Source: Chlamydiales bacterium
Lineage (GTDB): Bacteria > Chlamydiota > Chlamydiia > Chlamydiales > SM23-39
Reading direction: 5' to 3'
Assembly (NCBI GenBank): GCA_030681135.1
Contig: JAUXXF010000019.1
Location: forward strand, 16,578-80,577
Length of the DNA: 64,000 nt
Each line of letters starts with the position of its first letter. Positions within the stretch are counted from its first letter, which is position 1. Positions 2,065 to 27,827 of this stretch are shown one piece after another. The notes under the pieces are model-generated. The model was given only the letters and a program-made list of their open reading frames with translations, was not told where the DNA came from and did not search any database. The position numbers and the translations under genes are program-made.

Positions 2065-2565
2065 TTAGGTATTGTTGAAAGTTGTTTCTTCAACGATCCA
2101 AGACAAATAGCGGGGATTTGCCTGGGCAATATCGACCTGCAAAATCTCTGGAACTTCGTAGCTGCAGTGCGTTTGAATATATACTGCGCCCACTTAGGTT
2201 GTGTGAATTTTGGTGAGCATCTTTTTTGCTCCAGCGCATTGCTCGCTCTTGCAAACTCTCTGAGTTTGCGGCGAGCTCCGCAATGCTACTGGAGCTAAAA
2301 AATCTGCTGCCAAAATTCACACAATCTAAGTGGGCGCAGTATAGCTTTGGACTGTATCAAAATGTTTAGGCTGAGTCTTGAGAATCACCTTCGTTTCTCG
2401 GCTCTCTTCGATTTTTCCTTCCCATCGATAGATCGATTCGACCTCTGGAAAAATAGACGCGCAAGCAATGAGCTGCTGGCCTAACAATCCGTGAAGGATC
2501 TTCTTGGCTTCTTGCTTGTCACGGCAAGTCCAAAAAATATAAATAGCTTCTCTCTTATTAGGCAT
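2065..2565 (-). pseudogene. cutA: divalent-cation tolerance protein CutA, interrupted by a MITE
   Basis: N-part MPNKREAIYIFWTC...LIACASIFPEVESIYRWEGKIEESRETKVILKT...VQSY (2565-2341). C-part YIQTHCSYEVPEILQVDIAQANPRYLSWIVEETTFNNT* (2181-2065). Removing 162 bp gives a 112-aa CutA. Confidence 0.92.
2182..2341. mobile_element. 160-bp palindromic MITE (family B) with TA target duplication
   Basis: Terminal inverted repeats TACTGCGCCCACTTAG(G/A)TTGTGTGAATTTTGG; TA at 2180-2181 and 2342-2343; the interior is also self-complementary. Confidence 0.9.
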
Positions 2566-2569
2566 TGAT

Positions 2570-2803
2570 TTATGAGCCTCCCCCGTTGCCGCCATGGCCA
2601 CCATTTCCTCCGAAAAATCCGCCGCGACCTCCCTTCCCGCCGTTGCCATCTTTAGCGCCAGTGCCTCCATTTCCTCCGTTGCCTCCAAAAAACCCACCAT
2701 CTTCTCCGTTTTGACCAATTTCTCCATTTTTGCCATTTTGGTCAGAGCAAGCCACAAGAGAGATCGAAGAAATCAGCGCGGCAATGCTAAGTAAAATTTT
2801 CAT
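2570..2803 (-). CDS. small glycine-rich lipoprotein
   Basis: GGAG RBS, signal peptide with lipobox LVAC, then G-x-x/GGNGG repeats with two GGFFGGNGG units. Confidence 0.75.
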   Translation of the reverse strand: MKILLSIAALISSISLVACSDQNGKNGEIGQNGEDGGFFGGNGGNGGTGAKDGNGGKGGRGGFFGGNGGHGGNGGGS

Positions 2804-7896: not shown

Positions 7897-9342
7897 GTGA
7901 AACCGTTTGCTGTCATTCTTTTACTACTTTTTATCAGTTCCTGCCATGTTGGCCCCCGTTATGAAGGACCTTCTTCTGACGCTCCGGCTGATTGGAAAGG
8001 CTCTTCCATGGAAGCCACCGATGCGGCAGTTGAAAACTGGTGGGATATTTTTTGCGACGAGAAGCTAGATGAGCTCGAGAGGCTTGCTATCGAAAATAAT
8101 CGCAATTTGTACATGGCTCTTGAAAAAGTTGCAGAAGCTAGAGCCGTCGCCGGGGTTGCCAAATCAACTCTTTATCCTCAGGTCTATGCGAATCCTGCCT
8201 TTAATAACCTGAATGAGCTGATCAAACTCTACGGAGTTCCTCAGAGTCTATTTCCTGGTCTCAAAACGATCTCAAGAGTGCATGAACAGTCGTATTTGTT
8301 GCCAGTGACGATGAGCTATGAGGTGGATTTGTGGGGGAAATATCGGGGCACATACAATGCAGCGACGATTTACGCTCAGGCGAAAGATGAGGCTGTTAGA
8401 GTCACTCTCTTAACGATCACCACGGAAGTGGCGAGCCACTATTTTAATCTTAGAGCGGTAGATACCCAAATTGCCCTTCTAGAACAAATTCTCAACCTCC
8501 GAAAAGAGCTTTTCTCTCTCATCAAATCGAGATATCAATCTGGTCTTGTCAGTTATCTAGATTATCTCGATGCAGAAAAAATTCTCGCAGACACCGATGC
8601 CGAGTATCAAGAGAGCGTTCGTCAAAGATCCGTCTTTGAAAATGCCCTAGCATCTCTTTTAGGAACGATTGCTTCTGGTTTTTGCTTACCCCCTTCTCCT
8701 CTTTTGACTCCTCCTCCTCCCATTCCATCTGGCATCCCCTCTGAGATGCTCATGCGAAGGCCAGATCTAGCTCAAGCAGAAAGAGCCATGGCTGGGTTTC
8801 ATGAACTCATTTCCGTTGCCTACTCCACCTATTTTCCTTCCATTCTCCTCACTTCCGCCCTTGGGTTTTCCAGCCCCGATCTCTCGCAATTTCTCAACTG
8901 GACAGGTCGTTTATGGCAGATTGGCATCGACATCGCCCAAGTGATTTTTAACGGCGGTCGCAATCGCTCCTACGTAGAAGCTGCCTACGCTCGCTTTCGA
9001 GAGGCTAAAGCCTACTACGAACAAACTGTTTTCACAGCCTTTCAAGAAGTCGAAGATGCCCTAAACAATGTCGAGCAGTCTTCCCTTCAATTCAACGCCT
9101 TGCAAATCGCCTCAACATCTTCTCAACGTTTCTCCGGTCTCTCTGAGCTACGTAACGCAAAAGGTCTCGTCAATTCCCTCGACACCCTCTCTGCTCAGCG
9201 CGCAGCTCTCGATGCCGAACGAACCTCCATGAACGCTCTCGGTCGGCGCTATCAAGCAGCCATTCAACTCATCAAAGCTCTCGGTGGTGGCTGGGAAGGA
9301 TGTTCACCTTATCTTGGGGCTCCGCCCTCCGGAGACGGCTAA
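7897..9342 (+). CDS. NodT/OprM-family efflux outer-membrane lipoprotein
   Basis: Lipobox ISSC-HVGP; WWDIF.DEKL, SYEVDLWGK, PSEML.RRPDL, AFQEVEDAL, LIKALGGGW. The last residues are encoded by the REP/MITE. Confidence 0.93.
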   Translation: MKPFAVILLLLFISSCHVGPRYEGPSSDAPADWKGSSMEATDAAVENWWDIFCDEKLDELERLAIENNRNLYMALEKVAEARAVAGVAKSTLYPQVYANPAFNNLNELIKLYGVPQSLFPGLKTISRVHEQSYLLPVTMSYEVDLWGKYRGTYNAATIYAQAKDEAVRVTLLTITTEVASHYFNLRAVDTQIALLEQILNLRKELFSLIKSRYQSGLVSYLDYLDAEKILADTDAEYQESVRQRSVFENALASLLGTIASGFCLPPSPLLTPPPPIPSGIPSEMLMRRPDLAQAERAMAGFHELISVAYSTYFPSILLTSALGFSSPDLSQFLNWTGRLWQIGIDIAQVIFNGGRNRSYVEAAYARFREAKAYYEQTVFTAFQEVEDALNNVEQSSLQFNALQIASTSSQRFSGLSELRNAKGLVNSLDTLSAQRAALDAERTSMNALGRRYQAAIQLIKALGGGWEGCSPYLGAPPSGDG

Positions 9343-9538
9343 CGAATTTAGATTTCGTCGATTTTAGGGATTATTTTGGCCGATTTTCGATTCTCTTTCG
9401 GGGGGTCATATGCTGAAAGTCGATATTACCCCCCGAAAGAGAATCAAAAAGCGGCTCAAAAGAACCCTAAAATCGACTGAAACTAAATCCGTTAGCCGTC
9501 TCTTCCCCCGCCAAAGGACTGACGTCCTCTGGACTCCC
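9316..9538 (+). repeat. REP-like repeat split by MITE family A
   Basis: GGGGCTCCGCCC (9316-9327) [insert] CCCCGCCAAAGGACTGACGTCCTCTGGACTCCC. Confidence 0.9.
9332..9502. mobile_element. 171-bp palindromic MITE family A, copy 1
   Basis: Ends GAGACGGCTAACG...CGTTAGCCGTCTC; full-length imperfect inverted repeat homologous to 18362-18532 and 35223-35391. Confidence 0.88.
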
Positions 9539-9544
9539 ATTTGT

Positions 9545-9694
9545 TTTTATAGATCTGGACATGCGATGTTGTGGCAGAACTCTGATCTCTACGTTGCAAC
9601 CTAGCAAGGTGAGATAGCTCACAAGTATGTCGTTACTGAAATCATTAAATTTTCCAGTCATGAGGGCAGAGATCACACCGAGCTTTCTTGCCAT
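9545..9694 (-). pseudogene. remnant of an XRE/HTH_37 (HigA-like) helix-turn-helix gene
   Basis: MARKLGV-ISALMTGKFNDFSNDILVSYLTLLGCNVEIRV resembles the C-terminal half of HTH_37 proteins, apparently with a short deletion in the recognition-helix region. Confidence 0.55.
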
Positions 9695-10563
9695 GTGAAA
9701 ATAACTCCCGGGCGACAAAATAGCTTAGATTTTTTTGGATTAATAGAAGACAGACTTTCATTGAACTTTTCTATTGCTTCTGACACGCGTTTACAGGCCT
9801 CTGGTAACTTTTCATTGGAGGAATGTTGAACCATAATTTGTTCCACTTTTCCCCAATATAAAGCGAACAGATTTTCCAAAGCCTTAAATGATTCAATGAA
9901 CTTGGATTGCAGATCATTGATTTTATTTATATCTATCGAAGCAGCTTGACTTGTAGCGGTCGATAAGATGTTGTTGTGAATATGCAAAACCATATCAGCC
10001 TGATCGCAATGAAGTTTAGCTACTGTCTTTATTCCTGAGTGTGGTGGTAATCCACTTTTTTCTCCAATAAGTAATTTAAGTTGCTGATCTGCTTCAAGAA
10101 ATTGTTGTATAATAAAGGATATGTCCTTAATTTTTTGTTCCAATTCAGTAAGTAATTCTTGATATATTTGATTGTTGTTTTTTGTTGCTCTTTGAACTGA
10201 GTTTGATCGGATTTGAGTGCTTATCGGAGCTGGCGTAGGTTGTGTTGAAAAAGGCTTGGAGGAAATGGGAGGTCTAGATGAAGAATTGATTTTTGGCGCC
10301 TTAGAATATTTATCTTTATTCGCCTCTTGAGTTAAGAGGGTAGGAGTTGCTGGTTTCAGATTGTTTGGGGCGCTAGGAAAGAGTAATTCGTATCCTTTGG
10401 TCCATTGCGATAGGTAAAACTCTTTATTTTGCAGACCGACTAAGTATCCGATGTAGGCAATGGCTGCTAAGGCTATTCTGCTGATTCCTTCAAATTTTTG
10501 ACAGCATGTCGAGAAGGAAGGTAAGCTTGGTAAACAGGAAATTTTTTCGCAAACTCTCATCAT
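9673..10563 (-). CDS. hypothetical protein (TM + Pro/Ser-rich linker + coiled coil; effector-like)
   Basis: 296-aa AT-rich ORF with AAGGAG RBS. Confidence 0.65.
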   Translation of the reverse strand: MMRVCEKISCLPSLPSFSTCCQKFEGISRIALAAIAYIGYLVGLQNKEFYLSQWTKGYELLFPSAPNNLKPATPTLLTQEANKDKYSKAPKINSSSRPPISSKPFSTQPTPAPISTQIRSNSVQRATKNNNQIYQELLTELEQKIKDISFIIQQFLEADQQLKLLIGEKSGLPPHSGIKTVAKLHCDQADMVLHIHNNILSTATSQAASIDINKINDLQSKFIESFKALENLFALYWGKVEQIMVQHSSNEKLPEACKRVSEAIEKFNESLSSINPKKSKLFCRPGVIFTWQESSV

Positions 10564-10623
10564 ATAACGCTCCTTTTTGAAAAAATACTAACATGATTTG
10601 CTGAATTTCCCCAAATAATTAAA

Positions 10624-10655
10624 GGAGTTCAAAGGGCTGATGCCCTCTGGACTCT
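10624..10655. repeat. partial REP (hairpin 2 with tails on both sides)
   Basis: GGAGTTCAAAGGGC-TGAT-GCCCTCTGGACTC; the right part matches the REP tails at 9526-9538 and 13508-13521. Confidence 0.75.
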
Positions 10656-10670
10656 CGTTTGTTTTTTCGG

Positions 10671-11423
10671 TTAAAGAGCTTCGTAATGAATTGGATGGAA
10701 AAAATCTTGCGGAGACATTGTACTTTTTTCAGCACCAAATTCCTTCTGAATGGTTCCATTCCCAAGGACCCATAAACGGTCGCCAAGATGTTTGGCGATC
10801 ATCGGATCATGGGTAATCAGTAAGATGGGCACCTTGTGTGTTTGGCTATATTTTTTCGCAAAAGAGAGGAGCTGAGTAGCAGAGGTTGGATCAAGGGCTG
10901 CTGTCGGCTCATCGAGGAGAAGGAGTTTAGGGGGTTTTAGGATGGACATGATAAAGGCAATCATTTGCCTTTGACCTCCTGATAAAGAGCTCATAGGAAC
11001 ATCGAGAAATTTCTCTAAGTTCAAAGGCGCAAGAAATTCTGCAACGATGTTCTCTGGAAAGGCTGCAGTGGCTCGCTGAAATCCTGCAGCTCTTTCTTTG
11101 AGAGTGGCCATTGCAAGATTTTCTCGCACTGTTAGAGCAGAACATGAGCCAAGATAGGTGTTTTGAAAAAGCCTGCTGATAAAGCCAGCTCTTTTCTGTT
11201 CAGACATGGCTGTGATATCGATGCCATCTAGACAGATAGAGCCGCTATCGGGGGGGACTTTTCCAGAAATCATATCAAACAGTGTTGTTTTCCCTGTGCC
11301 ATTAGGACCCATGATGATGACAAAATCACCTGGATTTACGGTGGCAGAAAATGACTTGAGAACATGGAGATTCTTAAATGTTTTAGATACGTTTGAAAGT
11401 TGGAGCATAGGATTACCTCTCAA
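10671..11423 (-). CDS. ABC transporter ATP-binding subunit
   Basis: GPNGTGKTT, LSGGQRQ, LLLLDEPTAALDP, ITH; real start is probably 11408. Confidence 0.95.
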   Translation of the reverse strand: MRGNPMLQLSNVSKTFKNLHVLKSFSATVNPGDFVIIMGPNGTGKTTLFDMISGKVPPDSGSICLDGIDITAMSEQKRAGFISRLFQNTYLGSCSALTVRENLAMATLKERAAGFQRATAAFPENIVAEFLAPLNLEKFLDVPMSSLSGGQRQMIAFIMSILKPPKLLLLDEPTAALDPTSATQLLSFAKKYSQTHKVPILLITHDPMIAKHLGDRLWVLGNGTIQKEFGAEKSTMSPQDFFHPIHYEAL

Positions 11424-12252
11424 TGGCCTCTTTACGCGGTTTTAATTGGATCAAGACAACAATGAGCACAGCTTTAATGAGATTATTCCAGATCGGCTGC
11501 AGCTCGAATTCGATGGTGATGGCAAAAAGTGCTTGGTAAAGGATGGCGCCTAGAATCAGACTTAAACCAAACTTCGGTTTGACCAATTCTGCTAAAATAA
11601 GCCCGGCGATCCCTGTAACAAGAGTTCCTACGCTGCCTGTAATCGAAAACAGCCCGCTCCACTGAACAAAGAGAGCGCCTGCTAAAGCAGTTAGGCTATT
11701 TGCGATGGCAAGACCTGCAATTTTATAGTGATCAACACTTTTTCCCAAAGACGTGACGATTTGAGGGTTGCTGCCAACTGCTATGAAAAGGAGTCCTAAC
11801 TCCGAACGGAGAAGTTTTCTTATTCCCAGATAAACGATTGTGACAAGGATGAGGAGAAGACAAATAGAAAGCAGAGGCGTTTTAGGAAATATCGTCCCCG
11901 ATTCTGGAAGAGGAAGGTTCGAGCTTGCCAGCTTCAAGCAAATGGAAAAAAGAGCTGTTGTGACAACAAGGCCGGAAATGAGGTTATTCATCTTCATTTT
12001 CGTGTGCAAAAGGCCTGTAACAGATCCTGCCAAAGCGCCCCCTAACATAGCTATGGGTAGCGTGATCCACGGCGATAGGCCAGATACGATCGAAAGTGCT
12101 GTAATTGCTCCTCCAAAACCAAAACCTCCTTCTGTTGTCAAATCATCGAACTTGATCACGCGAGAAGAGAGGTAGACACCCATGACAACGAAGGAATAAA
12201 TCAGCCCTAGCAAGATGACATGAAGGAGAATATGAATGATTTCGCTTCCCAT
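11413..12252 (-). CDS. ABC transporter permease (TrpY-like, BPD_transp_2)
   Basis: GVYLSSRV...DLTTEGGFGFGGA, TGLLHTK, GLAIANSLTALAGAL. Confidence 0.9.
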   Translation of the reverse strand: MGSEIIHILLHVILLGLIYSFVVMGVYLSSRVIKFDDLTTEGGFGFGGAITALSIVSGLSPWITLPIAMLGGALAGSVTGLLHTKMKMNNLISGLVVTTALFSICLKLASSNLPLPESGTIFPKTPLLSICLLLILVTIVYLGIRKLLRSELGLLFIAVGSNPQIVTSLGKSVDHYKIAGLAIANSLTALAGALFVQWSGLFSITGSVGTLVTGIAGLILAELVKPKFGLSLILGAILYQALFAITIEFELQPIWNNLIKAVLIVVLIQLKPRKEAIER

Positions 12253-12254
12253 TG

Positions 12255-13196
12255 TTATTCCTTGATGGTTTCTACTGGAAGGTTAATGTGCAAGTTTTCT
12301 GCAACGGTGTTGTTGATGACCGTTTTTGGATTGGTAGGGTTGGTAATTCCTGCAGCTTCAGGAGTCATCCCAAGAAAAAGAACTTTATGGGCCATCTCGG
12401 CTGTTTCTTTCCCCATATCTTTGTACTCTGCTCCCTGAGCCGCAAAAGCGCCTTTTTCAACCAAGGCAATATCAGAGACAAAAAGAGGGCATTGTCTAAG
12501 AGCCGTTTCTTTAACGACAAGAGTGATATTGCTAGCGACGAGATTATCATTTGGGACTAAAATCGCTTCCCCTTTCGCGCAAGCGGCTCTTACAACTTGG
12601 GATAGCTCTTCTGCAGAGTGGGCTCCGACGGTGTGATGTTTAAGCCCTTTTTTCTCAAGCGATGCTTGGATTTTTTTGACCATAATCTGAGAGTTATTTT
12701 CAGATGGGTTGTAAATTAAAGCGACCGTTTGGACATTTGGGATGAGTTGTAAGATCAGATCTGCCTGAGCATCTGTGTTCACCTGGTCAGTTGTTCCGCA
12801 GATATTTGTGTTGGGATGAATAATTCCGAGGGATAGGGGATCAGAGACTGCAGCAATGAAAATCGGCTTTTCCTTTTCAGCTCTTGCAGCCGCTTGCACA
12901 GCGGGGGTTCCAATAGCAAAAATAGCGCTGATCTTTTTACGTGAATGGAAATTTTCTGCAATGCTTTGGGCTTGTGTTAGATTTCCTTCAGCATTTTGAA
13001 CGACGAAATCGATTTTTTGTGTCGATAAACGGTTCATTTCGGCCATAAAGCCGTCTCGAGCCTGGTCAAGAGCTGGGTGGCTTGCTGTTTGTAGAATGCC
13101 AATGGTCATGACTGAGTCGGAGTTGGATGGTTTTTTAAGGACAAACCAACCAATTAAGCCAATCAAAGCAAAAATAAAAATGAATCTTGAAAACAT
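12255..13196 (-). CDS. ABC transporter substrate-binding protein (ABC_sub_bind/TrpX-like, aromatic amino acid)
   Basis: IGILQTASHPALDQARDGF, QNAEGN, AIGTPAVQ, AVSDP, IYNPSENNS, PNDN motifs. Confidence 0.9.
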   Translation of the reverse strand: MFSRFIFIFALIGLIGWFVLKKPSNSDSVMTIGILQTASHPALDQARDGFMAEMNRLSTQKIDFVVQNAEGNLTQAQSIAENFHSRKKISAIFAIGTPAVQAAARAEKEKPIFIAAVSDPLSLGIIHPNTNICGTTDQVNTDAQADLILQLIPNVQTVALIYNPSENNSQIMVKKIQASLEKKGLKHHTVGAHSAEELSQVVRAACAKGEAILVPNDNLVASNITLVVKETALRQCPLFVSDIALVEKGAFAAQGAEYKDMGKETAEMAHKVLFLGMTPEAAGITNPTNPKTVINNTVAENLHINLPVETIKE

Positions 13197-13208
13197 AGTT
13201 CTCCTTGT

Positions 13209-13242
13209 AAAATTAAAAGCCCCAGCTCAGAGGCCGGGGCTT
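13209..13242 (-). terminator. attenuator terminator hairpin
   Basis: Minus strand AAGCCCCGGC-CTCTGA-GCTGGGGCTT-TTAATTTT just upstream of the AAGGAG RBS of the binding-protein gene. Confidence 0.85.
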
Positions 13243-13296
13243 CTCAGTAAGGAGATCCCCGGCCGGGAGCCGGGGCTGTAAATGGGTCACATTTTT

Positions 13297-13380
13297 TTAG
13301 CCAGCCAGCTCCCTTCTCCTAAAGAAAGGATAATAAAACTGAGTAGCAAAAATAAAATAGTTGTTTACTGGCTGTCGCAT
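13297..13380 (-). CDS. Phe/Tyr-rich attenuator leader peptide (27 aa)
   Basis: MRQPVNNYFIFATQFYYPFFRRRELAG*: 5 Phe + 3 Tyr within 13 codons, followed by mutually exclusive GC-rich hairpins. Confidence 0.85.
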   Translation of the reverse strand: MRQPVNNYFIFATQFYYPFFRRRELAG

Positions 13381-13387
13381 GCCTAAG

Positions 13388-13415
13388 ATTCTATCAAAGC
13401 CCCCAAATTATACAA
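13388..13415 (-). promoter_or_regulatory. sigma66/70-type promoter of the leader peptide
   Basis: TTGTAT-16 nt-TAGAAT, ending 7 nt before the leader ATG. Confidence 0.55.
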
Positions 13416-13507
13416 AGCATTATTTCTTCGGATTTTTACCAAACTTGGGAGTTATGTTCGCAAGCGAATCGTATAAAATAATTTACTTTCATGGATCTGT
13501 AAATTAA

Positions 13508-13558
13508 GGGAGTCCAGAGGGCGCAAGCCCTTTGGCGGGGTTTTAGGGGCGGAGCCCC
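13508..13558 (-). repeat. intact REP-like repeat
   Basis: Minus strand GGGGCTCCGCCCC-TAAAA-CCCCGCC-AAAGGGCTTGCGCCCT-CTGGACTCCC; its first G is the last base of the permease TAG. Confidence 0.9.
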
Positions 13559-14667
13559 TAAGAGACGAAACGTCTGCGGAAGAAGTGGGCGGCGGCGGTG
13601 AGGTTGAAGATGGCGATGAGACAAAGAGGCCAGAGGTGTTGGAAGATAGCATGAGTCGGAATGTCTTTGAGGAAGAGGCTACGGCAGATGTACATGAAGT
13701 AGCGAGTGGGGTTGATGTAGGTGGCATATTGAAGCCAGACGGGCATGTTTTCGATGGGGGTAGCAAAACCTGAGAGGAGAACGGCCGGGGTGAGGAAGAC
13801 GAAGGCTCCGAGAATGGCTTGTTGTTGAGTGGCGCAGAGAGATGAGATAAAGAGACCGACTCCGGTGATGGCAGCTGTGTAGATGAATGTGGAGAGGAGA
13901 AGAAGGAAGAAAGAGCCGACGAAGGGGATGTTGAAGAAGAAGAGAACGATGCAGAAGAGGAAGAGGCCTTCGAGGAGACTGACGAGGATGGAGGGGATCG
14001 TCTTGCCGATGAGGATTTCTGAAGGGGTGAGAGGGGAGACGAGAAGCTGATCGAACGTGCCGAGTTCCCGTTCTCGCGCAATGGAAAGACATGTGATGAG
14101 AAGCGCTTCGACCATGGTCAGGATCGCAAGAAGACCTGGAACTGTAAACCACTCGTAGAGAAGATTAGGATTGAACCAATAGCGCAAGATGAGGGCGGTG
14201 GGCTGCGTGGGGATTTTTTCTCTGAAGGAGAGCTCTTTGGCAAATTGATTGATGATCGTGTTGACGTAGCCGGAGATAATTTGTGCCGTGTTCGATTTTC
14301 TGCCATCTAAGATGAGCTGCAGAGAAGGGGAGCGTTGGGAGTCGAAGAGCCGAGAAAACTCCTCGTCGATAGAAAGAACGACAGGGCCGATTTGTTCGTT
14401 GATAAAAGGAGCGATCGATTCTACCGAGGGAAGAAGGATTACGTGGGTAAAAATGGGGGAACCTTGGATCCTTTCTACAAGCTCAAATCCCTTTTCTCCA
14501 TGATCTCGGTTGAGAATGCCAATGGTTACATTTTTCACATCGAGCGTGGCGGCAAAAGAGAAAATACATAGTTGCCAGAGAGGTGGGAAAATCAAAATGA
14601 AGCGGGTTTTTTTGTCTCGCCAGAGGAAAATGAGCTCTTTGAGGATGAGAGATAAAATTCGCTTCAA
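13558..14667 (-). CDS. ABC-2 exporter permease (YbhR-like)
   Basis: LILKE...RD, LDGRKSNTAQI, WFNPNL, SIARERELGTFDQLLVSPL, LSGFATPIENMP. Confidence 0.93.
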   Translation of the reverse strand: MKRILSLILKELIFLWRDKKTRFILIFPPLWQLCIFSFAATLDVKNVTIGILNRDHGEKGFELVERIQGSPIFTHVILLPSVESIAPFINEQIGPVVLSIDEEFSRLFDSQRSPSLQLILDGRKSNTAQIISGYVNTIINQFAKELSFREKIPTQPTALILRYWFNPNLLYEWFTVPGLLAILTMVEALLITCLSIARERELGTFDQLLVSPLTPSEILIGKTIPSILVSLLEGLFLFCIVLFFFNIPFVGSFFLLLLSTFIYTAAITGVGLFISSLCATQQQAILGAFVFLTPAVLLSGFATPIENMPVWLQYATYINPTRYFMYICRSLFLKDIPTHAIFQHLWPLCLIAIFNLTAAAHFFRRRFVS

Positions 14668-15785
14668 TCCAACCTCTTTACAGTCATGTGCGCTGTGTAG
14701 AGAAAAAGAACAAGCCCGATGCCTGCCATGATCGCCAGATTATAGAAGATGAGTTTCATCACGTTGCCGGCAAGAAAAATGGTTTGAAGACAAGAGACAA
14801 AATATTTTGCAGGAATGATGTAGGTCATCCACTGAATAGGAAGCGGCATGCTGGAGATCTCAAAAATAAATCCTGAAAGAATAAAGGCAGGCAAAAATGC
14901 TGAGATAATCGCAGCCTGAGAGGCAACAAATTGGTTTTTTGAAGCAGTAGAGATCAAAAGTCCCATCCCAAGAGCAGTCCACAGAAACACCATGCTGCAT
15001 AAAGCAAGTAAAAGCCAAGATCCACGCAAAGGAATTTGGTAGACAAAAAGAGCGATGATTGTTGAGAAAAGAAACGAAATCATCCCTAAAAGAAAATAGG
15101 AAAGAAGTTTTCCTAAAACAAGCTCTGTAATCGTGACCGGAGTTGCCATCAGCGCCTCCATGGTTCCTCGTTCCCATTCGCGGGCGACGACCAGAGCCGT
15201 AAGAAGAGTCCCAATTAACGTCATGATTAACGCGATAGAGCCGGGAATGAGAAAATTGCGACTCTCCAAATCCTCATTAAACCAAAATCTAGGTTCTACC
15301 TGAATCGGCTGCCATGGGATCCAACGGCTGCTAATCGTTTCTTGGAAGAGCCAGTTTTGAAAGGCCATTTGGACATAATTATCCACAAAATTAGCGGTAT
15401 TAGGTTCGCTCCCGTCGGCAATCACTTGGATAGGAGCTATGTGATCTGCTCGCTGTCTAAAAGAAGAGAAATAAGAAGGAACAACAACAATCCCACGAAC
15501 CGATCCATCGACCAGCTTTGCATGAAACTCTCTTTGATGCCTTCCGATCTGGACAGAAAAATATTCAGAGTCTGTGAGAGCTTTGGCAAAACTTTGCACT
15601 TCGGGAGAAGTGTCTTCGAGAACAAGGCCGATTTTTAAATGTTTATAATCTAAAGAGATGCCATAGCCATAAATAAACAACAAAATGGCAGGCAAAACGA
15701 AGCTGATCAAGATGCTGCTCGGATCGCGGATGATCTGATAAAATTCTTTCACCACGAGGGCTTTAAGTCTTTTGCTGCTGATCAT
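14664..15785 (-). CDS. ABC-2 exporter permease (YbhS-like)
   Basis: KEFYQIIRDPSS, DGSEPNTANFV, VVAREWERGTMEALMATP. Confidence 0.93.
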   Translation of the reverse strand: MISSKRLKALVVKEFYQIIRDPSSILISFVLPAILLFIYGYGISLDYKHLKIGLVLEDTSPEVQSFAKALTDSEYFSVQIGRHQREFHAKLVDGSVRGIVVVPSYFSSFRQRADHIAPIQVIADGSEPNTANFVDNYVQMAFQNWLFQETISSRWIPWQPIQVEPRFWFNEDLESRNFLIPGSIALIMTLIGTLLTALVVAREWERGTMEALMATPVTITELVLGKLLSYFLLGMISFLFSTIIALFVYQIPLRGSWLLLALCSMVFLWTALGMGLLISTASKNQFVASQAAIISAFLPAFILSGFIFEISSMPLPIQWMTYIIPAKYFVSCLQTIFLAGNVMKLIFYNLAIMAGIGLVLFLYTAHMTVKRLD

Positions 15786-17454
15786 ATTGTCTAATTAATG
15801 TAATAAATGCGTCTTCTAAAGTGGGCGTTTTGTTAAGGGGCGTTTGAGCGAGGCTCTTGAGGTTATCTGGCGAATCGATGTGGATCATATGGCTTTGATA
15901 GATCAGCGCAATCCGATCGCAGTATTCAGCTTCATCCATAAAGTGGGTAGAGACCAAGATCGTGCATCCTTTTTCGACAAGGCCGTTGATGTGGTTCCAA
16001 AATTCTCGTCTTGTAATCGGATCGACGCCTGAGGTTGGTTCATCTAAAAACAGCACTTCAGGGTGATGCATTGTAGCGCAAGCCAAGGCTAGCCGCTGTT
16101 TATAGCCGAGAGGGAGGGAAGAAGTGGATAGATTAAGATAAGGGTGAAGTCCAAAAATATCGATCATCTCTTCTACAGCGTGGGAGTAGGAGCGATTTTT
16201 CAGAGGATAAACGCCAGCGAAAAAATGGAGGTTTTGTTTGACGCTAAGCCCTCCATAAAGGGAGAATTTTTGAGCCATGTAACCGATGTGGGAGCGGGCG
16301 ATTGCTGGAGCTGTTTGCAAGCTAACCCCTTCGACAAAGGCTTTGCCAGAGGTGGGTTGCAAAAGGCCGCAAAGCATTTTGAATGTGGTGGATTTTCCTG
16401 CGCCGTTGGGACCTAAGAGTCCGAATACCTCTCCTCTTCGTACTTGAAAAGAGACGTCGTCTACAGCTGTGAAAGAGCCAAAACGTTTTGTTAGGTGTTC
16501 AGCGCTGATCACGTTTTTTTGTTCTGTCAGAATGGGAGTCATCCGATCGGCCAGAGGCGAAGAGCCTCCTGGGGCGCCTCCGAGAAGATCGATAAACGCA
16601 TCCTCAAAGCGAGGAGGACACGGCGTCCAAGAAGGATCTGGCGTTGCATGTTCTTTGATGACGATCCGAATTTTTTCTCCTTGGATTGTTCCATCGAGAA
16701 CCATCTTCTGATTCAGTAAATCGGTCAATAGAGCTCTTTTTCGCGTCTCAGGACGCAAGAGAGTAAATGTTCTTCCCTCCATGCGCTCCGTCAGCTCTTT
16801 GGGAGGCCCTTGATAGAGTAGTTTTCCGCCATTGAGAAGAAGGACGAGACCTGCTTTTTCTGCTTCTTCGAGATACGCTGTGCTCCAAATGATCCCGATC
16901 CCTTCTTGGAGAAATTGTTGAATGAGATCCCACAGTTCCCGTCTCGAGATGGGATCGACGCCGACGCTAGGCTCATCGAGAAGAAGTAGAGTAGGTTTGC
17001 GAATGAGCGTACAGGCAAGTCCTAGCTTTTGTTTCATTCCGCCAGATAGATTGCCAGCCAGTCTCGTTGGATATTTCGAGAGGTTCATCATAGAGAGAAG
17101 TCGATCAAAAACGGCTTTTTTCTCCTTTTCTAAAACTCCTTGCAAGTCGGCATATAAAGAGAGGTTTTGCATCACAGTCAGATCTTCATAAAGACCAAAT
17201 CTCTGCGGCATATAGCCAATTTGGCTTTGGATCTTTTGCGCCTCTTTGACTGTATCCAGGCCATTTACGAGTATGCTGCCTTTGGTGGGCAAAAGAAGCC
17301 CTGCGATCATCCGGAGCAGCGTCGTTTTGCCAGAACCATCTGGTCCTGCAAGGGCGACAAATGTCCCTTGTGGAATCGAGGCACTGATTTGATCGAGAGC
17401 GGTTTGCTGATCGAATGTTTTTGTGACATTACGGATGTCGATCAGGGGCGCCAT
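15763..17454 (-). CDS. ABC exporter dual ATPase (YbhF-like)
   Basis: Two NBDs: GPDGSGKTT/LSGGMKQKL/LDEPSVGVDPISRR and GPNGAGKST/LPLGYKQRL/LDEPTSGVDP. Confidence 0.95.
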   Translation of the reverse strand: MAPLIDIRNVTKTFDQQTALDQISASIPQGTFVALAGPDGSGKTTLLRMIAGLLLPTKGSILVNGLDTVKEAQKIQSQIGYMPQRFGLYEDLTVMQNLSLYADLQGVLEKEKKAVFDRLLSMMNLSKYPTRLAGNLSGGMKQKLGLACTLIRKPTLLLLDEPSVGVDPISRRELWDLIQQFLQEGIGIIWSTAYLEEAEKAGLVLLLNGGKLLYQGPPKELTERMEGRTFTLLRPETRKRALLTDLLNQKMVLDGTIQGEKIRIVIKEHATPDPSWTPCPPRFEDAFIDLLGGAPGGSSPLADRMTPILTEQKNVISAEHLTKRFGSFTAVDDVSFQVRRGEVFGLLGPNGAGKSTTFKMLCGLLQPTSGKAFVEGVSLQTAPAIARSHIGYMAQKFSLYGGLSVKQNLHFFAGVYPLKNRSYSHAVEEMIDIFGLHPYLNLSTSSLPLGYKQRLALACATMHHPEVLFLDEPTSGVDPITRREFWNHINGLVEKGCTILVSTHFMDEAEYCDRIALIYQSHMIHIDSPDNLKSLAQTPLNKTPTLEDAFITLIRQYDQQQKT

Positions 17455-18296
17455 GGCGATCTCTATGTAATTTCACAGTCACAGGCATGCCCTGTTTAAG
17501 TCCCCAGTCGGGGTTATCGGCGTAGACGCGGATTCTGTAGACAAGATCGGTGCGAAGTTCTGTTGATTGGACGGTTTTAGGGGTAAATTCTGCAACAGGG
17601 GAGATGAAGCCAATTTTCCCGGTGTAGGTATTGCCCCCTTTTGTATCGGTAAAAATTTCAGCTTCCATGCCAGGATAAATAACGCCCAAGAGCGGCTCTG
17701 GAACGTAGGCTCTTACCCAGACTGGAGAGATGAGAGAGAGTGTATAGACAGGTTCTCCTTGAAGAACGACAGTTCCTGGTTCTCGGACTCTCGTTAAAAT
17801 CGTCCCATCTGCGGGGCTATAAGCTCTTGTATTGCGAAGATTGGTTTTTGCAACTCCTAAAGTGGCGACAGCCTCTTTCACCCGCTGCTCATCTACATCT
17901 CTTGCAGTCTCTGCATTTTCATAATCTTCTTGAGAAACGCCTCCTACTTTCACAAGCTCCTGGCGTCTTAAAAAAATTTGCTCCGTGTTTTCTAAAGATA
18001 GACGGGCTGCTTGTAGGCTTGCTTCCGCCCTTTTCACTTCATCAGCATAAGGCTGCGGATCGATCGATGCCATCAAGGCGCCTTTGGGAACAAAATCCCC
18101 CTCTTCGAAAGGCATTGAGCGCACATTGCCGTAGACTCGAAAGCCGATGTCTACTTGTCTGACGTCGACATTGCCATAGAGCGTGATTTCGTCTTTGTGA
18201 TTTTTATGGGTTAAGTTGAAAACCAACCAAACTACCGTGCAAGTGATCAGCACGGAAATAACCACAATCAAGATGTTTTTTATCATAGGCCTCATA
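17429..18296 (-). CDS. HlyD-family periplasmic adaptor (YbhG-like)
   Basis: LYGNVDVRQV, GFISPVAEFTPKTVQSTELRTDLVYR, QGMPVTV; start at 18296 or 18287 rather than 18331. Confidence 0.93.
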
Positions 18297-18346
18297 ATCG
18301 AGGTTTTATGATTTGAATCGTCTAAAGTCAAGGGGCGATTTGCATT

Positions 18347-18567
18347 GGGGCTCCGCCCTAGGAGACTGTTAATGGATTTAGTTTCTGTCGATTTTAGAGT
18401 TTTTTTGAGCGAAATTTCGTTTGCTTTTAGGGGGGTAATATCGCCTTCCAGTATATGACCCCCCTAAAAGCAAACGAAATTTGGCCAAAAAAATCCCTAA
18501 AATCGACGAAACCTAAACCCATTAACAGTCTCTTACCCCGCCAAAGGACTCCGTCCTTATGGAATCC
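18347..18567 (+). repeat. REP-like repeat split by MITE family A
   Basis: GGGGCTCCGCCC-TA-[insert]-TA-CCCCGCCAAAGGACTCCGTCCTTATGGAATCC. Confidence 0.9.
18362..18532. mobile_element. 171-bp palindromic MITE family A, copy 2
   Basis: Ends GAGACTGTTAATG...CATTAACAGTCTC; interior is in the opposite orientation to copy 1. Confidence 0.9.
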
Positions 18568-18574
18568 TAAGTTC

Positions 18575-26454: not shown

Positions 26455-27663
26455 ATGCCTCAAATTTTGAGGTATTGGATGCGTTTTGCATTTGTGCGCC
26501 CTAATAAATATAGCGAGTGGGGTGGGGATTTAAAGGCTATTTTGGACTTGCAAGAAGGTTTACATGCCTTAGGCCATAGCTCCTTCATCACTCAAGATCC
26601 CATGAGTTCGCTTGAAGCAAATCAGATTTTTTTCATCGGGACTTTAATCAATCGCTCCGCAGATTATTATTTCATGCATTTGATGGGAAGAAATTATGGG
26701 TGTATCGCGTTTCATGAGGACTCTCTTTTATACTCTGGAGCAAGTTACGGGTTTGCTTACTATGTCCTTGGCTCTTTGCAAGAAAGAATCGAAGAAGGAG
26801 TCTCTTTTTCTCTCGATCATCTCTATCAAAGACCTCATTTGATTTTTTACTACGATCGGATGCGACCTATCAATGTACTTCAAAATTATGAGTTTTTAGA
26901 GCGCGCATCTTCTGTGGTCGTCTCTTCTTTGAGAGAACAGGCAACGCTTCTTCGTGATGTCCCTTCTTGCAATAGTCAAGTTGTCCGCTGGGGAGCAGGC
27001 CATGTGCGTCAAATGAAAGAACTTCCTACAGAAGAATTTTTACGATTTACAGGCTTAAAAAAAGGAAATTATATTTTGCAGGTCGGTCGCTTTTCGACGA
27101 GAAAAAATCAGCTCGCGACGCTTCTTGCCACCAAAGATCTCGATATTCCTTTGGTCTTTATTGCCATGGATCGATGTAATCAAACCTATGAAGAGATCGT
27201 TTTGGCCTCTGCCTTGAAATGGAGAAAGGCCCCTACCCTTGTCATTTCTCAACACCTATCGCCTTCTTTATCTAGAGGCCCTCTCACCATTCTCCCTACG
27301 CCCGGAGGAGAGATCCTCTCTTCTTCTATGCTCCTTAGCGCATTTGCGCATGCAGGGCTTCATATGCATCCTGCTTTTTATGAATTGCCGGGCTACACCT
27401 ATTTTGAATCTGCCCGTTTCGGAATTCCTACGATTGCTTCTGAGTGGACCTCCATTCGAGAATACTTTCCAGATCTAGATGACCGAATCGAATACGCCCT
27501 GCCTTACGATCTTCCTGCTCTCAGATCTTTAGCGGAGAAGAAATTTGGGAAAATCTATCCGCAGTTTCCTCTGCATCCTATTTATGAGAGAAGCTCTGAG
27601 GAGATTGCTCGGGATTTTCTCAGCTCCTGCTCATCATTGGGGCTCTGCCCCAAACCCCGTTAA
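26455..27663 (+). CDS. GT-B (family 4-like) glycosyltransferase
   Basis: WGGD, ILQVGRFSTRKNQL, HPAFYELPGYTYFESARFGIPTIAS. The C-terminal GLCPKPR* is encoded by a REP. Confidence 0.85.
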   Translation: MPQILRYWMRFAFVRPNKYSEWGGDLKAILDLQEGLHALGHSSFITQDPMSSLEANQIFFIGTLINRSADYYFMHLMGRNYGCIAFHEDSLLYSGASYGFAYYVLGSLQERIEEGVSFSLDHLYQRPHLIFYYDRMRPINVLQNYEFLERASSVVVSSLREQATLLRDVPSCNSQVVRWGAGHVRQMKELPTEEFLRFTGLKKGNYILQVGRFSTRKNQLATLLATKDLDIPLVFIAMDRCNQTYEEIVLASALKWRKAPTLVISQHLSPSLSRGPLTILPTPGGEILSSSMLLSAFAHAGLHMHPAFYELPGYTYFESARFGIPTIASEWTSIREYFPDLDDRIEYALPYDLPALRSLAEKKFGKIYPQFPLHPIYERSSEEIARDFLSSCSSLGLCPKPR

Positions 27664-27669
27664 AGGACT
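27596..27669 (+). repeat. 74-bp direct repeat, left copy (glycosyltransferase 3' end + truncated REP)
   Basis: 72/74 identical to 29376-29449. Confidence 0.95.
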
Positions 27670-27827
27670 GCGCGCAATTAGAGAACGGTTAAGCGCAAAG
27701 CTTGAGCTAAAGTTACGCAGGATGAGGATTTTACTCAAAAAAAAGAGTTGTCAAAACTAATGGCATTGTGTATGGTTACCCAACTCACATGCAGGACATG
27801 TGAGTGGAAAAACAAAGGGAAATCATT

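What the first reader, a model, noticed from the sequence alone, without database searches (positions are those of the whole stretch)
8700..14100. Directional, strand-specific codon skew for several hundred bp upstream of REP copies
Seen: on the strand reading GGGGCTCCGCCC, DNA 5' of the repeat becomes C-rich and G-poor at third codon positions. Hand count for nodT 9061-9300 (80 codons): C32, T22, A18, G8, versus about 11 C-ending codons in 80 early lpxC codons on the same strand. The last ~74 codons of the YbhR-like gene are ~60% C-ending with only one synonymous G, while its operon neighbour uses many T-ending codons. A milder trend precedes the REPs at 27639 and 29419. It follows REP orientation on both strands, so replichore skew alone does not explain it. 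Established: C>T and A>G deamination makes persistently single-stranded DNA G/T-rich. Inference: the REP may be a nicking or loading site (HUH/RAYT-like or helicase entry) that repeatedly exposes one strand on one side, leaving a local mutational footprint.
Basis: partly seen in the sequence, partly recalled or inferred. Interest (0 to 1): 0.8.

Follow-up and report, generated by a model that had tools for sequence, protein, structure and literature searches.

The report
Repeat-anchored one-sided codon skew islands
In this uncultured chlamydia, the DNA just outside each copy of a small palindromic repeat becomes rich in C and poor in G on one strand for about half a kilobase, whatever gene lies there; this looks like the scar of a strand-specific DNA process that starts at the repeat, and I found no description of it in print.

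Summary
The "REP" is the 59-bp terminal inverted repeat of a ~157-bp palindromic MITE (104 units).

- **Pattern:** On the strand reading towards the repeat, third-position C is 0.34 against 0.19 expected. The excess decays with a length constant of about 0.5 kb.
- **Gene orientation:** Genes reading away from the repeat show the same excess, as G3 (0.30 against 0.20).
- **Strength:** 46 of 105 outer flanks lie below the control 5th percentile and 0 above the 95th (MWU 5e-25).
- **Sidedness:** Solo repeats are skewed only on the outer side.
- **Controls:** REP-less gene ends, generic intergenic flanks and a second MITE family show nothing.
- **Independence:** The effect does not depend on replication direction.
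- **Beyond third positions:** It also reaches non-coding spacers, codon positions 1 and 2, and amino-acid composition.
- **Other genomes:** Orthologues in a REP-free congener mostly lack it, but the YbhR-like gene keeps it. A distant family with the same repeat core shows it at 9 of 10 loci.

Best reading is a strand-specific mutational footprint starting at the repeat's outer end; the enzyme is unknown and no RAYT was found. Earlier scan notes report GRINS-like skew islands on other DNA, none anchored to a repeat.

The parts
7897..9342 (+). nodT-like outer-membrane efflux protein gene (Pfam OEP). The C3-rich/G3-poor island covers about 8770-9315 (G3 falls from about 8400). The last 9 codons run into the repeat.
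9314..9327 (+). Outer end of a repeat unit (12-mer GGGGCTCCGCCC at 9316-9327). The unit is split by an inserted element; the rest of it lies at 9506-9547.
   Evidence: nhmmer hit, model positions 19-59, at C22 26083-26124 = window 9506-9547; a ~90% identical relative in run X3 skips 9327->9506
9328..9505 (.). 178-bp palindromic MITE of a second family, inserted into the repeat. Not part of the skew effect; used as a control family.
9673..13196 (-). Four genes between the two outward-facing repeat ends: unknown 295 aa, ABC ATPase, BPD_transp_2 permease, ABC_sub_bind. Ordinary lagging-strand composition, no island (this is the inner side of both repeats).
13501..13559 (-). Solo repeat unit (two hairpins), with its outer end abutting the stop codon of the YbhR-like gene.
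13558..14667 (-). YbhR-like ABC-2 permease gene. Extreme C3 island over 13558-14067 (C3 58-78%), moderate up to 14667. The sequence is unique in the genome.
14664..15785 (-). YbhS-like ABC-2 permease, the operon neighbour. Near-baseline composition (C3 0.24).
18345..18574 (+). Third repeat unit, also split by a copy of the second MITE family (12-mer at 18347-18358, remainder at 18534-18574). It faces the start of the HlyD-like gene 17429-18331(-), whose first 100 codons show only a mild G3 rise.
27637..27685 (+). Repeat unit downstream of gene 26455-27663. Weak trend only (last 80 codons C19/G17).
29418..29568 (.). Complete ~150-bp MITE: two repeat units tail to tail around a central hairpin. 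As single-stranded DNA it folds into one long hairpin. Flanked by genes 28103-29347(+) and 29577-30470(-), both moderately C3-rich toward it.

Best explanation
The 'REP' is the 59-bp terminal inverted repeat of a ~157-bp palindromic MITE. Its conserved core is T..GGGGCTCYGCCCCAAACCCCG, followed by a second hairpin.

A strand-specific DNA process starts, or is blocked, at the outer end of each unit and acts outward over a few hundred bases. Over evolutionary time it drives A->G (and more weakly C->T, plus pyrimidine->purine) on the strand that runs 5'->3' away from the repeat. The strand reading toward the repeat therefore becomes C-rich and G-poor.

Because the process acts on DNA, a gene that ends at the repeat gains C-ending codons, and a gene that starts there gains G-ending codons. 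Purifying selection keeps the proteins intact, so the effect is largest at third positions, but positions 1 and 2 and amino-acid composition shift too.

Shown: the element, the polarity, the one-sidedness, the decay, the independence from replication and gene direction, the specificity to this repeat family, and the direction of the compositional change.

Inferred: that the cause is mutational. My preferred mechanism is repeated nicking at the repeat end with a 3'-OH that primes outward repair or strand-displacement synthesis. Equivalently, the outward-running strand is repeatedly exposed as single-stranded DNA. The genome has uracil-DNA glycosylase, but endonuclease V was not found, which would let adenine deamination (A->G) dominate.
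For: **Element**
- nhmmer finds 104 units; 29 are tail-to-tail pairs and 39 are solo units that keep an outer end.
- An alignment of 18 full copies gives the consensus.
- Each unit folds as two hairpins (-13.4 kcal/mol, z -5.8).

**Polarity and decay**
- Genes reading toward the repeat: third-position C on the strand reading toward it is 0.344 against 0.194 expected at 1-150 bp, with a fitted length constant of 573 bp.
- Genes reading away: 0.302 against 0.196, length constant 475 bp.

**Controls**
- Last 100 codons of genes ending at a repeat against REP-less genes: C3 27.8 vs 15.7 on the leading strand (n=23/492, p=2e-9) and 37.3 vs 24.6 on the lagging strand (n=24/537, p=3e-8).
- First 100 codons of genes starting at a repeat: G3 32.4 vs 22.6 on the leading strand (n=13, p=9e-6) and 22.2 vs 16.2 on the lagging strand (n=12, p=0.12).
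- REP-less genes show no 3' enrichment (all).
- The excess is about 12 points in both replication orientations.
- Solo units: outer-flank skew about -0.2, decaying to 0 by about 1 kb; inner-flank skew about 0.
- Second MITE family: 64 flanks, mean skew -0.013. Generic intergenic flanks: n=1350, mean -0.006.

**DNA-level effect**
- 23 non-coding spacers (4148 bases) have skew -0.15.
- Positions 1 and 2 and amino-acid composition shift in the same direction.
- In gene C32:9428-10600, positions 1+2 hold G 30-38 / C 11-17 per 50 codons, against G 22-27 / C 22-29 in the REP-free congener. The difference fades by codon ~250.

**Direction of change**
- In C islands, C/(C+T) in NNY codons rises from 0.42 to 0.57 (0.74 in the 12 strongest). 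G/(A+G) in NNR codons falls little.
- In G islands, G/(A+G) rises from 0.41 to 0.52 (0.62 in the 6 strongest).
- Leu shifts from TTR to CTC, and Arg from AGR to CGC.

**Lineage link**
- The family is found in G000, G001 and G002 (73, 108 and 93 core matches). G003 has none; G004 has one match, which is only a palindromic hairpin.
- For 15 genes with a repeat at the 3' end, the G000-minus-G004 end skew is -0.108 against +0.114 in 182 controls (p=0.0037). For 5 genes with a repeat at the 5' end it is +0.49 against +0.16.
- Two loci (C10_66322, C29_13233) have islands in REP-bearing G001 and G002; at both, the G004 orthologue, with no repeat, has none. In G003 C29_13233 also has none, and the G003 copy of C10_66322 is cut off.

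**Independent lineage**
- In G034 (another family, same repeat core, different second hairpin), 9 of 10 loci show at least 0.15 skew of the predicted sign over the adjacent ~600 bp, up to 0.73.
- In G029 the figure is 5 of 9.

**Repair genes in G000**
- UDG, a Y-family polymerase and MutS are present. Endonuclease V was not found.
Against: - The YbhR-like island is also present in congeners G003 and G004, which lack the repeat family (last 170 codons C3 0.51 and 0.71).
- In G004, orthologues of lagging-strand REP-adjacent genes are already more C-skewed than controls (-0.362 vs -0.181, n=8, p=0.027).
- The G001 orthologue of C32 gene A keeps an island (C43/G10 in the last 100 codons) with no repeat within 1.5 kb.
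- So part of the skew may predate the repeats, or repeats were lost.
- Repeat conservation (HMM score, a rough proxy for age) does not correlate with flank skew (rho 0.065, p=0.54, n=91).
- 59 of 105 outer flanks are not below the control 5th percentile.
- No nuclease, transposase or helicase could be tied to the repeat:
  - No Y1_Tnp and no rve.
  - The one DDE_Tnp_1 is not flanked by the repeat.
  - The one TnpB was not found in REP-rich G001 and G002.
  - Genes enclosed by repeats are not transposases.
- The spectrum is not pure deamination. At fourfold sites the C-rich strand loses A as well as G and T, and the TA skew hardly moves.
- All inference is from composition. No polarised substitutions, no rates, no nick or ssDNA data.
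Confidence: 0.55

Rival explanations
1. Insertion or retention preference: the skew boundaries exist first, from some other cause, and the MITE lands at them or survives there in a fixed orientation.
For: The YbhR-like island exists in REP-free G003 and G004. In G004, orthologues of lagging-strand REP-adjacent genes are somewhat C-skewed (p=0.027, n=8). The G001 orthologue of C32 gene A has an island without a repeat. Near-consensus repeat copies have islands nearly as strong as degenerate ones.
Against: Leading-strand orthologues in G004 are normal (-0.017 vs -0.082, p=0.39), and 4 of 5 G islands are absent there. Two loci have islands in REP-bearing G001 and G002 and none in the G004 orthologue (G003: none at one locus, copy cut off at the other). 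The 484-kb G004 contig shows no excess of C|G over G|C switches (130 vs 122 maximum), so the supposed target sites are not a general feature. Another unknown process would still be needed to make one-sided, repeat-oriented islands. The same polarity appears in a distant family.
Confidence: 0.15
2. Selection on RNA: transcripts running into the element from either side are kept C-rich and G-poor (Rho-loading, rut-like). Transcription then stops before the long palindrome, and the repeat hairpins serve as the 3' end.
For: Repeats lie mostly at gene 3' ends (53 of 87 within 150 bp behind a gene that reads toward them). The second hairpin of each unit is terminator-like for incoming transcription. 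C-rich/G-poor is the textbook composition of rut sites (my own knowledge, not tested here).
Against: The excess is almost as large where the inbound RNA would be antisense to a gene start (0.302 vs 0.196). It spans 0.5-1.5 kb, changes positions 1 and 2 and the protein, and reaches non-coding spacers. REP-less gene ends have no such signal. Selection on hundreds of synonymous sites at about 50 loci seems unlikely in an intracellular bacterium (inference).
Confidence: 0.1
3. Outward transcription or R-loops: each repeat end drives transcription into the flank. The G-rich non-template strand is displaced and deaminated, and G-richness feeds back on R-loop formation.
For: The geometry is the same as the preferred model, with the outward 5'->3' strand exposed. 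The outward strand starts with GGGGTTTGGGG, read from the sequence. Promoter-proximal GC skew with R-loops in mammals is an analogy I recall, not a test.
Against: No sigma-70-like promoter was found in the complete MITE at 29300-29700 (0 found). At 13350-13650 the one weak match points inward. No RNA run is available.
Confidence: 0.1
4. Recombination hotspot with biased conversion (GRINS-like): the repeat end initiates one-sided recombination or repair tracts whose mismatch correction is strand- and GC-biased.
For: The effect is one-sided with a sub-kb to kb scale. GC3 rises overall (0.50 vs 0.39 at 1-150 bp). GRINS show similar third-position skews and Gly/Val enrichment, with no known cause (passages of PMC8256042).
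Against: The islands lie in unrelated single-copy genes. The one island I tested is unique in the genome, so no donor copy exists. The TA skew barely changes, whereas GRINS have correlated GC and TA skews. Simple GC-biased conversion is strand-symmetric (reasoning).
Confidence: 0.08
5. Ordinary causes: replication skew combined with inversions, horizontal transfer, or membrane-protein codon usage.
For: nodT appears relocated and inverted relative to other genera, where a nodT-type lipoprotein gene follows ybhR directly (read from downstream sequences). The genome has strong replication skew.
Against: The effect size is equal in both replication orientations. Gradients lie inside genes. Polarity flips with repeat orientation and is one-sided. 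The hydrophobic-protein effect is small (C3 0.277 vs 0.239).
Confidence: 0.02

Closest known systems
[quoted passage not shown] 2021, PMC8256042; passages read)
   Same: Intense strand skew inside intact coding sequence, strongest at third codon positions, with visible shifts in amino-acid usage (Gly and Val up on the G-rich side). The cause is unknown.
   Different: GRINS are by definition duplicated stretches and have correlated GC and TA skews. Here the skewed DNA is single-copy (one island tested) and the TA skew hardly moves. The skew is anchored to the outer end of a repeat, with fixed polarity and exponential decay.
Strand-displacement mutational gradient of vertebrate mitochondrial DNA (PMC8565317; search listing and start of abstract only; details from my own knowledge)
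   Same: The skew gradient is set by distance from a defined start site. The strand left single-stranded gains G (A->G, C->T), and genes on the other strand become C-rich and G-poor at third positions.
   Different: That gradient spans a whole genome from a replication origin. Here about 100 sites per chromosome each give a ~0.5-kb one-sided gradient unrelated to chromosomal replication direction.
Classical REP/REPIN elements with their RAYT transposase (PMC3733652; passages read)
   Same: Short GC-rich hairpin repeats, mostly behind genes, often in inverted pairs, about 100 copies.
   Different: No GTAG/CGTC end tag and no RAYT gene. In my searches I found no report of flank skew for REPs.
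Replication-associated GC skew of bacterial chromosomes
   Same: The polarity matches that around an origin: the strand running 5'->3' away from the site is G-rich.
   Different: Local (0.5-1.5 kb), far stronger (flank skew up to -0.54 here and 0.73 in G034), independent of replichore, and without the T>A component of this genome's own replication skew.
Error gradient of DNA polymerase I synthesis from a ColE1-type origin or a nick
   Same: Synthesis primed at one fixed 3'-OH gives a one-directional mutation gradient that decays within roughly a kilobase.
   Different: That is a laboratory plasmid phenomenon. No nick or polymerase involvement is shown here.

Membership tests
Classical REP / REPIN (RAYT-mobilised) | Many copies of a short extragenic palindrome, often as inverted dimers | tested here: met
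   104 units, 29 tail-to-tail pairs
Classical REP / REPIN (RAYT-mobilised) | Unpaired GTAG (or CGTC) tetranucleotide tag at one end (criterion from PMC3733652 passages) | tested here: not met
   The consensus unit starts TTGGGGCTC and ends GGAATCC, with no terminal GTAG or CGTC
Classical REP / REPIN (RAYT-mobilised) | RAYT (Y1_Tnp, PF01797) gene in the genome, flanked by the repeats | tested here: not met
   No match in G000 (97% complete); the control genomes do match
MITE (non-autonomous TIR element) | Terminal inverted repeats around a short non-coding core, in many copies | tested here: met
   18 full copies aligned, ~59-bp TIRs plus a central hairpin. The whole element folds at -68.7 kcal/mol.
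MITE (non-autonomous TIR element) | Target-site duplication | tested here: inconclusive
   I saw no direct repeat in the 12-bp flanks of the 18 aligned copies (by eye). A 0-2 bp duplication cannot be excluded.
MITE (non-autonomous TIR element) | A full-length insertion sequence with the same TIRs and a transposase | tested here: not met
   Genes enclosed by repeat pairs are Ras-like, F-box/TPR, redoxin and similar. The single DDE_Tnp_1 and the single TnpB are not flanked by the repeat. Only four transposase Pfam families were searched.
GRINS | Intense GC skew, strongest at third codon positions, with an amino-acid effect | tested here: met
GRINS | The skewed stretch is a repeat (duplicated within the cluster or genome) | tested here: not met
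   The island 13560-14100 matches only itself in G000. Only this one island was tested; the others lie in unrelated genes.
GRINS | Correlated GC and TA skews | tested here: not met
   Third-position TA skew on the C-rich strand shifts by only about 0.02-0.04 while C rises by 0.10-0.15
Replication-strand compositional skew | The sign follows the direction of chromosomal replication | tested here: not met
   The C3 excess is equal for leading- and lagging-strand genes. Repeat orientation against local skew is 48 vs 40.
Rho-utilisation (rut) region | C-rich, G-poor RNA upstream of a Rho-dependent stop, with the stop depending on Rho | not testable with these tools
   The composition fits for genes ending at the repeat, but the same bias occurs on the antisense strand of genes starting there. 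No functional data.

The most novel reading that the evidence does not exclude
The conserved repeat core (GGGGCTCYGCCCCAAACCCC plus a hairpin) is a cis-acting entry site for a still unidentified host or mobile-element enzyme: a nickase, a helicase loader or a primer-generating activity. That enzyme launches one-directional DNA synthesis or unwinding into the neighbouring DNA. Each copy would then act as a portable local mutator that recodes 0.5-1.5 kb of whatever gene lies next to it, protein sequence included. The same kind of anchored process could be the unexplained cause of GRINS-type skew islands elsewhere.
Probability: 0.3. Interest if true: 0.9.

Novelty: new variant of a known kind. 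Interest (0 to 1): 0.8.

Why it matters
Strand-asymmetric composition is normally read as a record of replication or transcription. Here about a hundred small repeats per genome each carry their own one-sided gradient. That gradient overrides both replication and transcription signals, reaches C3 above 70% and changes protein composition.

If it is mutational, it reveals a site-specific, strand-specific DNA transaction at REP/MITE ends that nobody has mapped. It shows that a mobile repeat can reshape the coding sequence of its neighbours without interrupting them. It also offers an anchored, polar model for the unexplained GRINS skews.

On the practical side, such islands distort codon-usage, horizontal-transfer and origin-prediction analyses in these genomes.

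Six full-text searches found no description of repeat-anchored flank skew. The library lacks most subscription journals, and supplements were closed.

Tried and rejected
- **RAYT/HUH idea:** PF01797 was not found.
- **TnpB as the repeat enzyme:** one copy in G000, but not found in G001 and G002 with this query.
- **Other transposases:** the DDE_Tnp_1 copy is not flanked by the repeat; rve was not found.
- **Genes enclosed by repeat pairs:** no transposase among the 10 scanned.
- **Sequence motif in the islands:** k-mer analysis of the 25 strongest flanks shows only diffuse composition, with TC dinucleotides up and no C-run expansion.
- **Repeat age against skew:** no correlation.
- **Membrane-protein codon effect:** small.
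- **Outward promoter:** none by consensus scan.
- **Rfam:** no family matches in the window.
- **Expression:** no RNA holder is listed for this DNA.
- **Regional substitution spectrum from a ~90% identical relative (run X3):** the per-site table was cut to 40 of about 1650 rows. Only whole-stretch counts and piece-level divergence (8.7-9.9%) were usable, so no spectrum or rate by distance could be made.
- **Metagenome contig scan for that close relative:** the best hit is 73% protein identity, which is too distant.
- **G004 repeat family search:** only a 19-bp palindrome turned up, unrelated to the islands. The single REP-like hit in G004 is just a hairpin.
- **DGR-type targeted mutagenesis:** considered and dropped, because the island has no second (template) copy.
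- **G029:** the signal is weak (5 of 9 loci), so I treat it as modest support only.
- **Python cap:** it was reached, so the G034 and G029 loci were judged from composition tables with a stated threshold and without a formal test.

Full report
**What is in the window**

- The 12-mer GGGGCTCCGCCC (up to 1 mismatch) occurs 6 times in the window, against 0.18 expected.
- It occurs 87 times in the 1.94-Mb, 33-contig genome that holds the window.
- Context listings and an nhmmer model built from 71 copies give 104 units of about 59 bp.
- Each unit folds as two hairpins: GGGGC-TCY-GCCCC, then AAAGGAC-TNC-GTCCTTT.
- 29 pairs lie tail to tail around a central hairpin. They form a ~157-bp palindromic MITE whose 12-mers face outward.
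- 39 units with an outer end are solo.
- So "5' of the repeat on the strand reading GGGGCTCCGCCC" means the DNA outside the element.
- The closest genomes carry record titles of Chlamydiae, Chlamydiales and Parachlamydiaceae MAGs.
- Region 8700-14100 holds, in order:
  - a nodT-like OEP gene (7897-9342, +);
  - a repeat unit split by a 178-bp MITE of another family (9328-9505);
  - four ABC-transporter-related genes (9673-13196, -);
  - a solo repeat unit (13501-13559, -);
  - a YbhGFSR-like operon, whose last gene is the YbhR-like permease (13558-14667, -).

**The observation**

- The + strand of the window is the G-rich leading strand. Most + strand genes have G3 > C3 and most - strand genes the reverse.
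- Against that background, the YbhR-like gene has C3 0.50 (genome 99th percentile 0.354), with 58-78% over its last 170 codons.
- nodT, on the leading strand, has the opposite sign to most + strand genes in the window. Its C3 climbs to about 45% toward the repeat.
- The steps lie inside the genes, not at gene borders.

- *Raw flanks.* Skew is -0.17 next to the repeat and reaches 0 by about 1 kb.
- *Third positions, corrected for replication strand.*
  - Genes reading toward the repeat: C 0.344 against 0.194 expected at 1-150 bp, decay constant 573 bp.
  - Genes reading away, letters read on the same DNA strand: C 0.302 against 0.196, decay constant 475 bp.
  - On the coding strand, this second group appears as G3-rich gene starts.
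- *Gene-level tests against REP-less genes.*

| Class | Measure | With repeat | REP-less | n (repeat) | p |
|---|---|---|---|---|---|
| Gene ends at repeat, leading | C3 in last 100 codons | 27.8 | 15.7 | 23 | 2e-9 |
| Gene ends at repeat, lagging | C3 in last 100 codons | 37.3 | 24.6 | 24 | 3e-8 |
| Gene starts at repeat, leading | G3 in first 100 codons | 32.4 | 22.6 | 13 | 9e-6 |
| Gene starts at repeat, lagging | G3 in first 100 codons | 22.2 | 16.2 | 12 | 0.12 |

- REP-less genes have the same C3 in their first and last 100 codons.
- 46 of 105 outer flanks fall below the 5th percentile of 1518 control flanks, 29 below the 1st, and none above the 95th.
- Of the 17 genes with a 40-codon window of at least 24 C-ending codons, 10 have an HMM-detected unit just behind their stop in the same orientation. 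An eleventh has a truncated copy.
- 15 of the 30 strongest C|G skew switches lie within 250 bp of a repeat, against 0 of the 30 strongest G|C switches.
- The clearest locus is C32:9260-9413. Two co-directional genes flank a complete MITE. The upstream gene is C-rich (C3 0.53). The downstream one is G-rich (G3 0.52 in its first 100 codons).

**What the pattern depends on**

- *One-sided.* Solo units have outer-flank skew of about -0.2 and inner-flank skew of about 0.
- *Independent of replication.* The excess is the same in leading and lagging genes. Repeat orientation is unrelated to local skew.
- *Specific to this repeat.* 64 flanks of the second MITE family average -0.013, and 1350 generic intergenic flanks -0.006.
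- *A DNA-level effect.*
  - Non-coding spacers are skewed (-0.15, n=23).
  - Codon positions 1 and 2 and amino-acid composition shift in the same direction: Ala, Pro, Thr and His rise in C islands; Gly, Val, Arg, Glu and Lys rise in G islands.
  - In a paired comparison with the REP-free congener, the first ~200 codons of gene C32:9428-10600 have clearly more G and less C at positions 1+2.
- *No sequence motif.* The enrichment is diffuse.

**Direction of change**

- On the strand that runs 5'->3' away from the repeat, twofold codon families show strong A->G and weaker C->T.
- Sixfold families confirm the trend. Leu shifts from TTR to CTC and Arg from AGR to CGC in C islands. Leu shifts to TTG and Ser from TCN to AGT in G islands.
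- At fourfold sites the G-rich strand also gains purines at the expense of T. Deamination alone does not predict this.
- This genome's replication skew has a clear T>A component; the islands do not.
- The genome encodes UDG, MutS and a Y-family polymerase. Endonuclease V was not found. That combination would fit A->G outweighing C->T if single-stranded exposure is the cause. This is inference.

**Does the repeat cause the skew?**

- The family is abundant in G000, G001 and G002. G003 has no core match. G004 has one, which is only a hairpin.
- On 484 kb of G004 I found 244 reciprocal-best orthologue pairs.
  - For 15 same-strand genes with a repeat at the 3' end in G000, the end skew is 0.22 more negative relative to G004 than in 182 controls (p=0.0037).
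  - For 5 genes with a repeat at the 5' end, the start skew is +0.49 against +0.16.
  - G004 shows no polarity excess of skew switches.
- Two strong loci keep repeat and island in G001 and G002; their G004 orthologues have neither. The G003 orthologue of one also has neither, and the other G003 copy is cut off.
- nodT has no C island in G002 or G003, where no repeat follows it.
- In G004, nodT sits in a block of ordinary C-rich genes.

Evidence pointing the other way:

- The YbhR-like island is present in all five congeners, including REP-free G003 and G004.
- Lagging-strand orthologues in G004 are somewhat C-skewed (p=0.027, n=8).
- One G001 orthologue has an island without a repeat.
- Repeat conservation does not predict skew.
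- I therefore hold repeat-linked causation as likely but not proven. For the YbhR-like gene specifically it stays open.

**Independent replication**

- G034 belongs to another family of the same order. It carries 11 copies of an element with the same core and a different second hairpin.
- At 9 of 10 loci there, the adjacent ~600 bp on the predicted side has skew of at least 0.15 of the predicted sign. Values reach 0.73 and extend at least 1.5 kb.
- In G029, 5 of 9 loci pass the same threshold.
- These loci were taken from the hit list without looking at composition first. They were judged from composition tables without a formal test.

**Mechanism**

- The geometry is that of something starting at the outer end and running outward. 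The strand whose 5'->3' direction leads away from the unit takes the changes expected for a repeatedly exposed or repeatedly resynthesised strand.
- My preferred model is a strand-specific nick at the element end. Its 3'-OH primes outward repair or displacement synthesis, as would follow abortive end-cleavage by a transposase or a structure-specific nuclease.
- I could not find the enzyme:
  - No RAYT and no rve.
  - One DDE transposase and one TnpB, neither linked to the repeat.
  - No transposase inside repeat-bounded segments.
- Outward transcription lacks a consensus promoter.
- No RNA data exist for this MAG.

**Comparison with what is known**

- The element fails the REP/RAYT membership tests on end tag and transposase. 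It fits a MITE only by architecture.
- The skew resembles GRINS in its third-position intensity and amino-acid effect. It differs in being single-copy, having no correlated TA skew, and being anchored to a repeat with a polar decay.
- The nearest mechanistic analogues are the mitochondrial strand-displacement gradient (listing only) and polymerase I synthesis from a fixed primer (recalled).
- Six literature searches found no report of repeat-anchored flank skew. Supplements were closed and subscription journals are mostly absent from the library.

**Verdict**

A polar, repeat-oriented footprint holds. The HUH/RAYT enzyme and pure deamination do not.
- The phenomenon appears undescribed and is worth experimental follow-up.

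Noticed in passing
window 9328-9505 and 18359-18533: A 178-bp palindromic MITE of a second family sits inside a repeat unit, directly after GGGGCTCCGCCC, at two window loci. A ~90% identical relative in run X3 has the intact repeat at the first site. 12 of 47 copies of this MITE in the genome lie within 300 bp of a repeat unit, so the repeat may be a preferred target.
   Followed up: partly
window 7897-9342 compared with loci L008, L010, L011, L012, L014, L017, L018, L020: In other genera a gene that starts with a NodT-type lipoprotein signal follows ybhR directly on the same strand. In this genus nodT is convergent (adjacent in G003; separated by one gene in G002 and by four genes and two repeats here). 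nodT was therefore inverted or relocated.
   Followed up: partly
G000 C4:18186-20441, C32:192494-195446, C11:3516-5933 and others: Segments bounded by two outward-facing repeat units carry accessory, eukaryote-like genes: two Ras-family GTPases, F-box/TPR proteins, a beta-barrel OMP, a redoxin. Repeats often mark the borders of accessory gene blocks.
   Followed up: partly
window 9546-10671: The ~90% identical relative in run X3 lacks this 1.1-kb stretch, which holds the unknown 295-aa gene 9673-10563. The gene has no Pfam match.
   Followed up: no
window 2326-2757 (-): A 143-aa ORF with G3 0.40 on the lagging strand has the strongest G3 window in the genome (27 of 40) and no repeat nearby. 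It may be a mis-called strand or a separate skew island.
   Followed up: no
G000 C1:40900-45700, C25:94100-94700, C27:8000-12700: Several of the strongest alternating C|G and G|C skew switches in the genome lie far from any repeat (more than 3 kb away), some inside large genes. They may be GRINS-like or repetitive proteins.
   Followed up: no
window 9316-9342; L168 and L173 (G034): Open reading frames often run on into the repeat before stopping. nodT's last 9 codons are repeat-encoded, and the same happens at two G034 loci. Insertion therefore replaced the original C-terminus or stop codon.
   Followed up: no
G004:C33, e.g. 86230, 109060, 362420, 385790: A 19-bp palindrome (ATGTAAAGC-G-GCTTTACAT type) recurs in intergenic regions of the REP-free congener. 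It could be an operator or a terminator.
   Followed up: no
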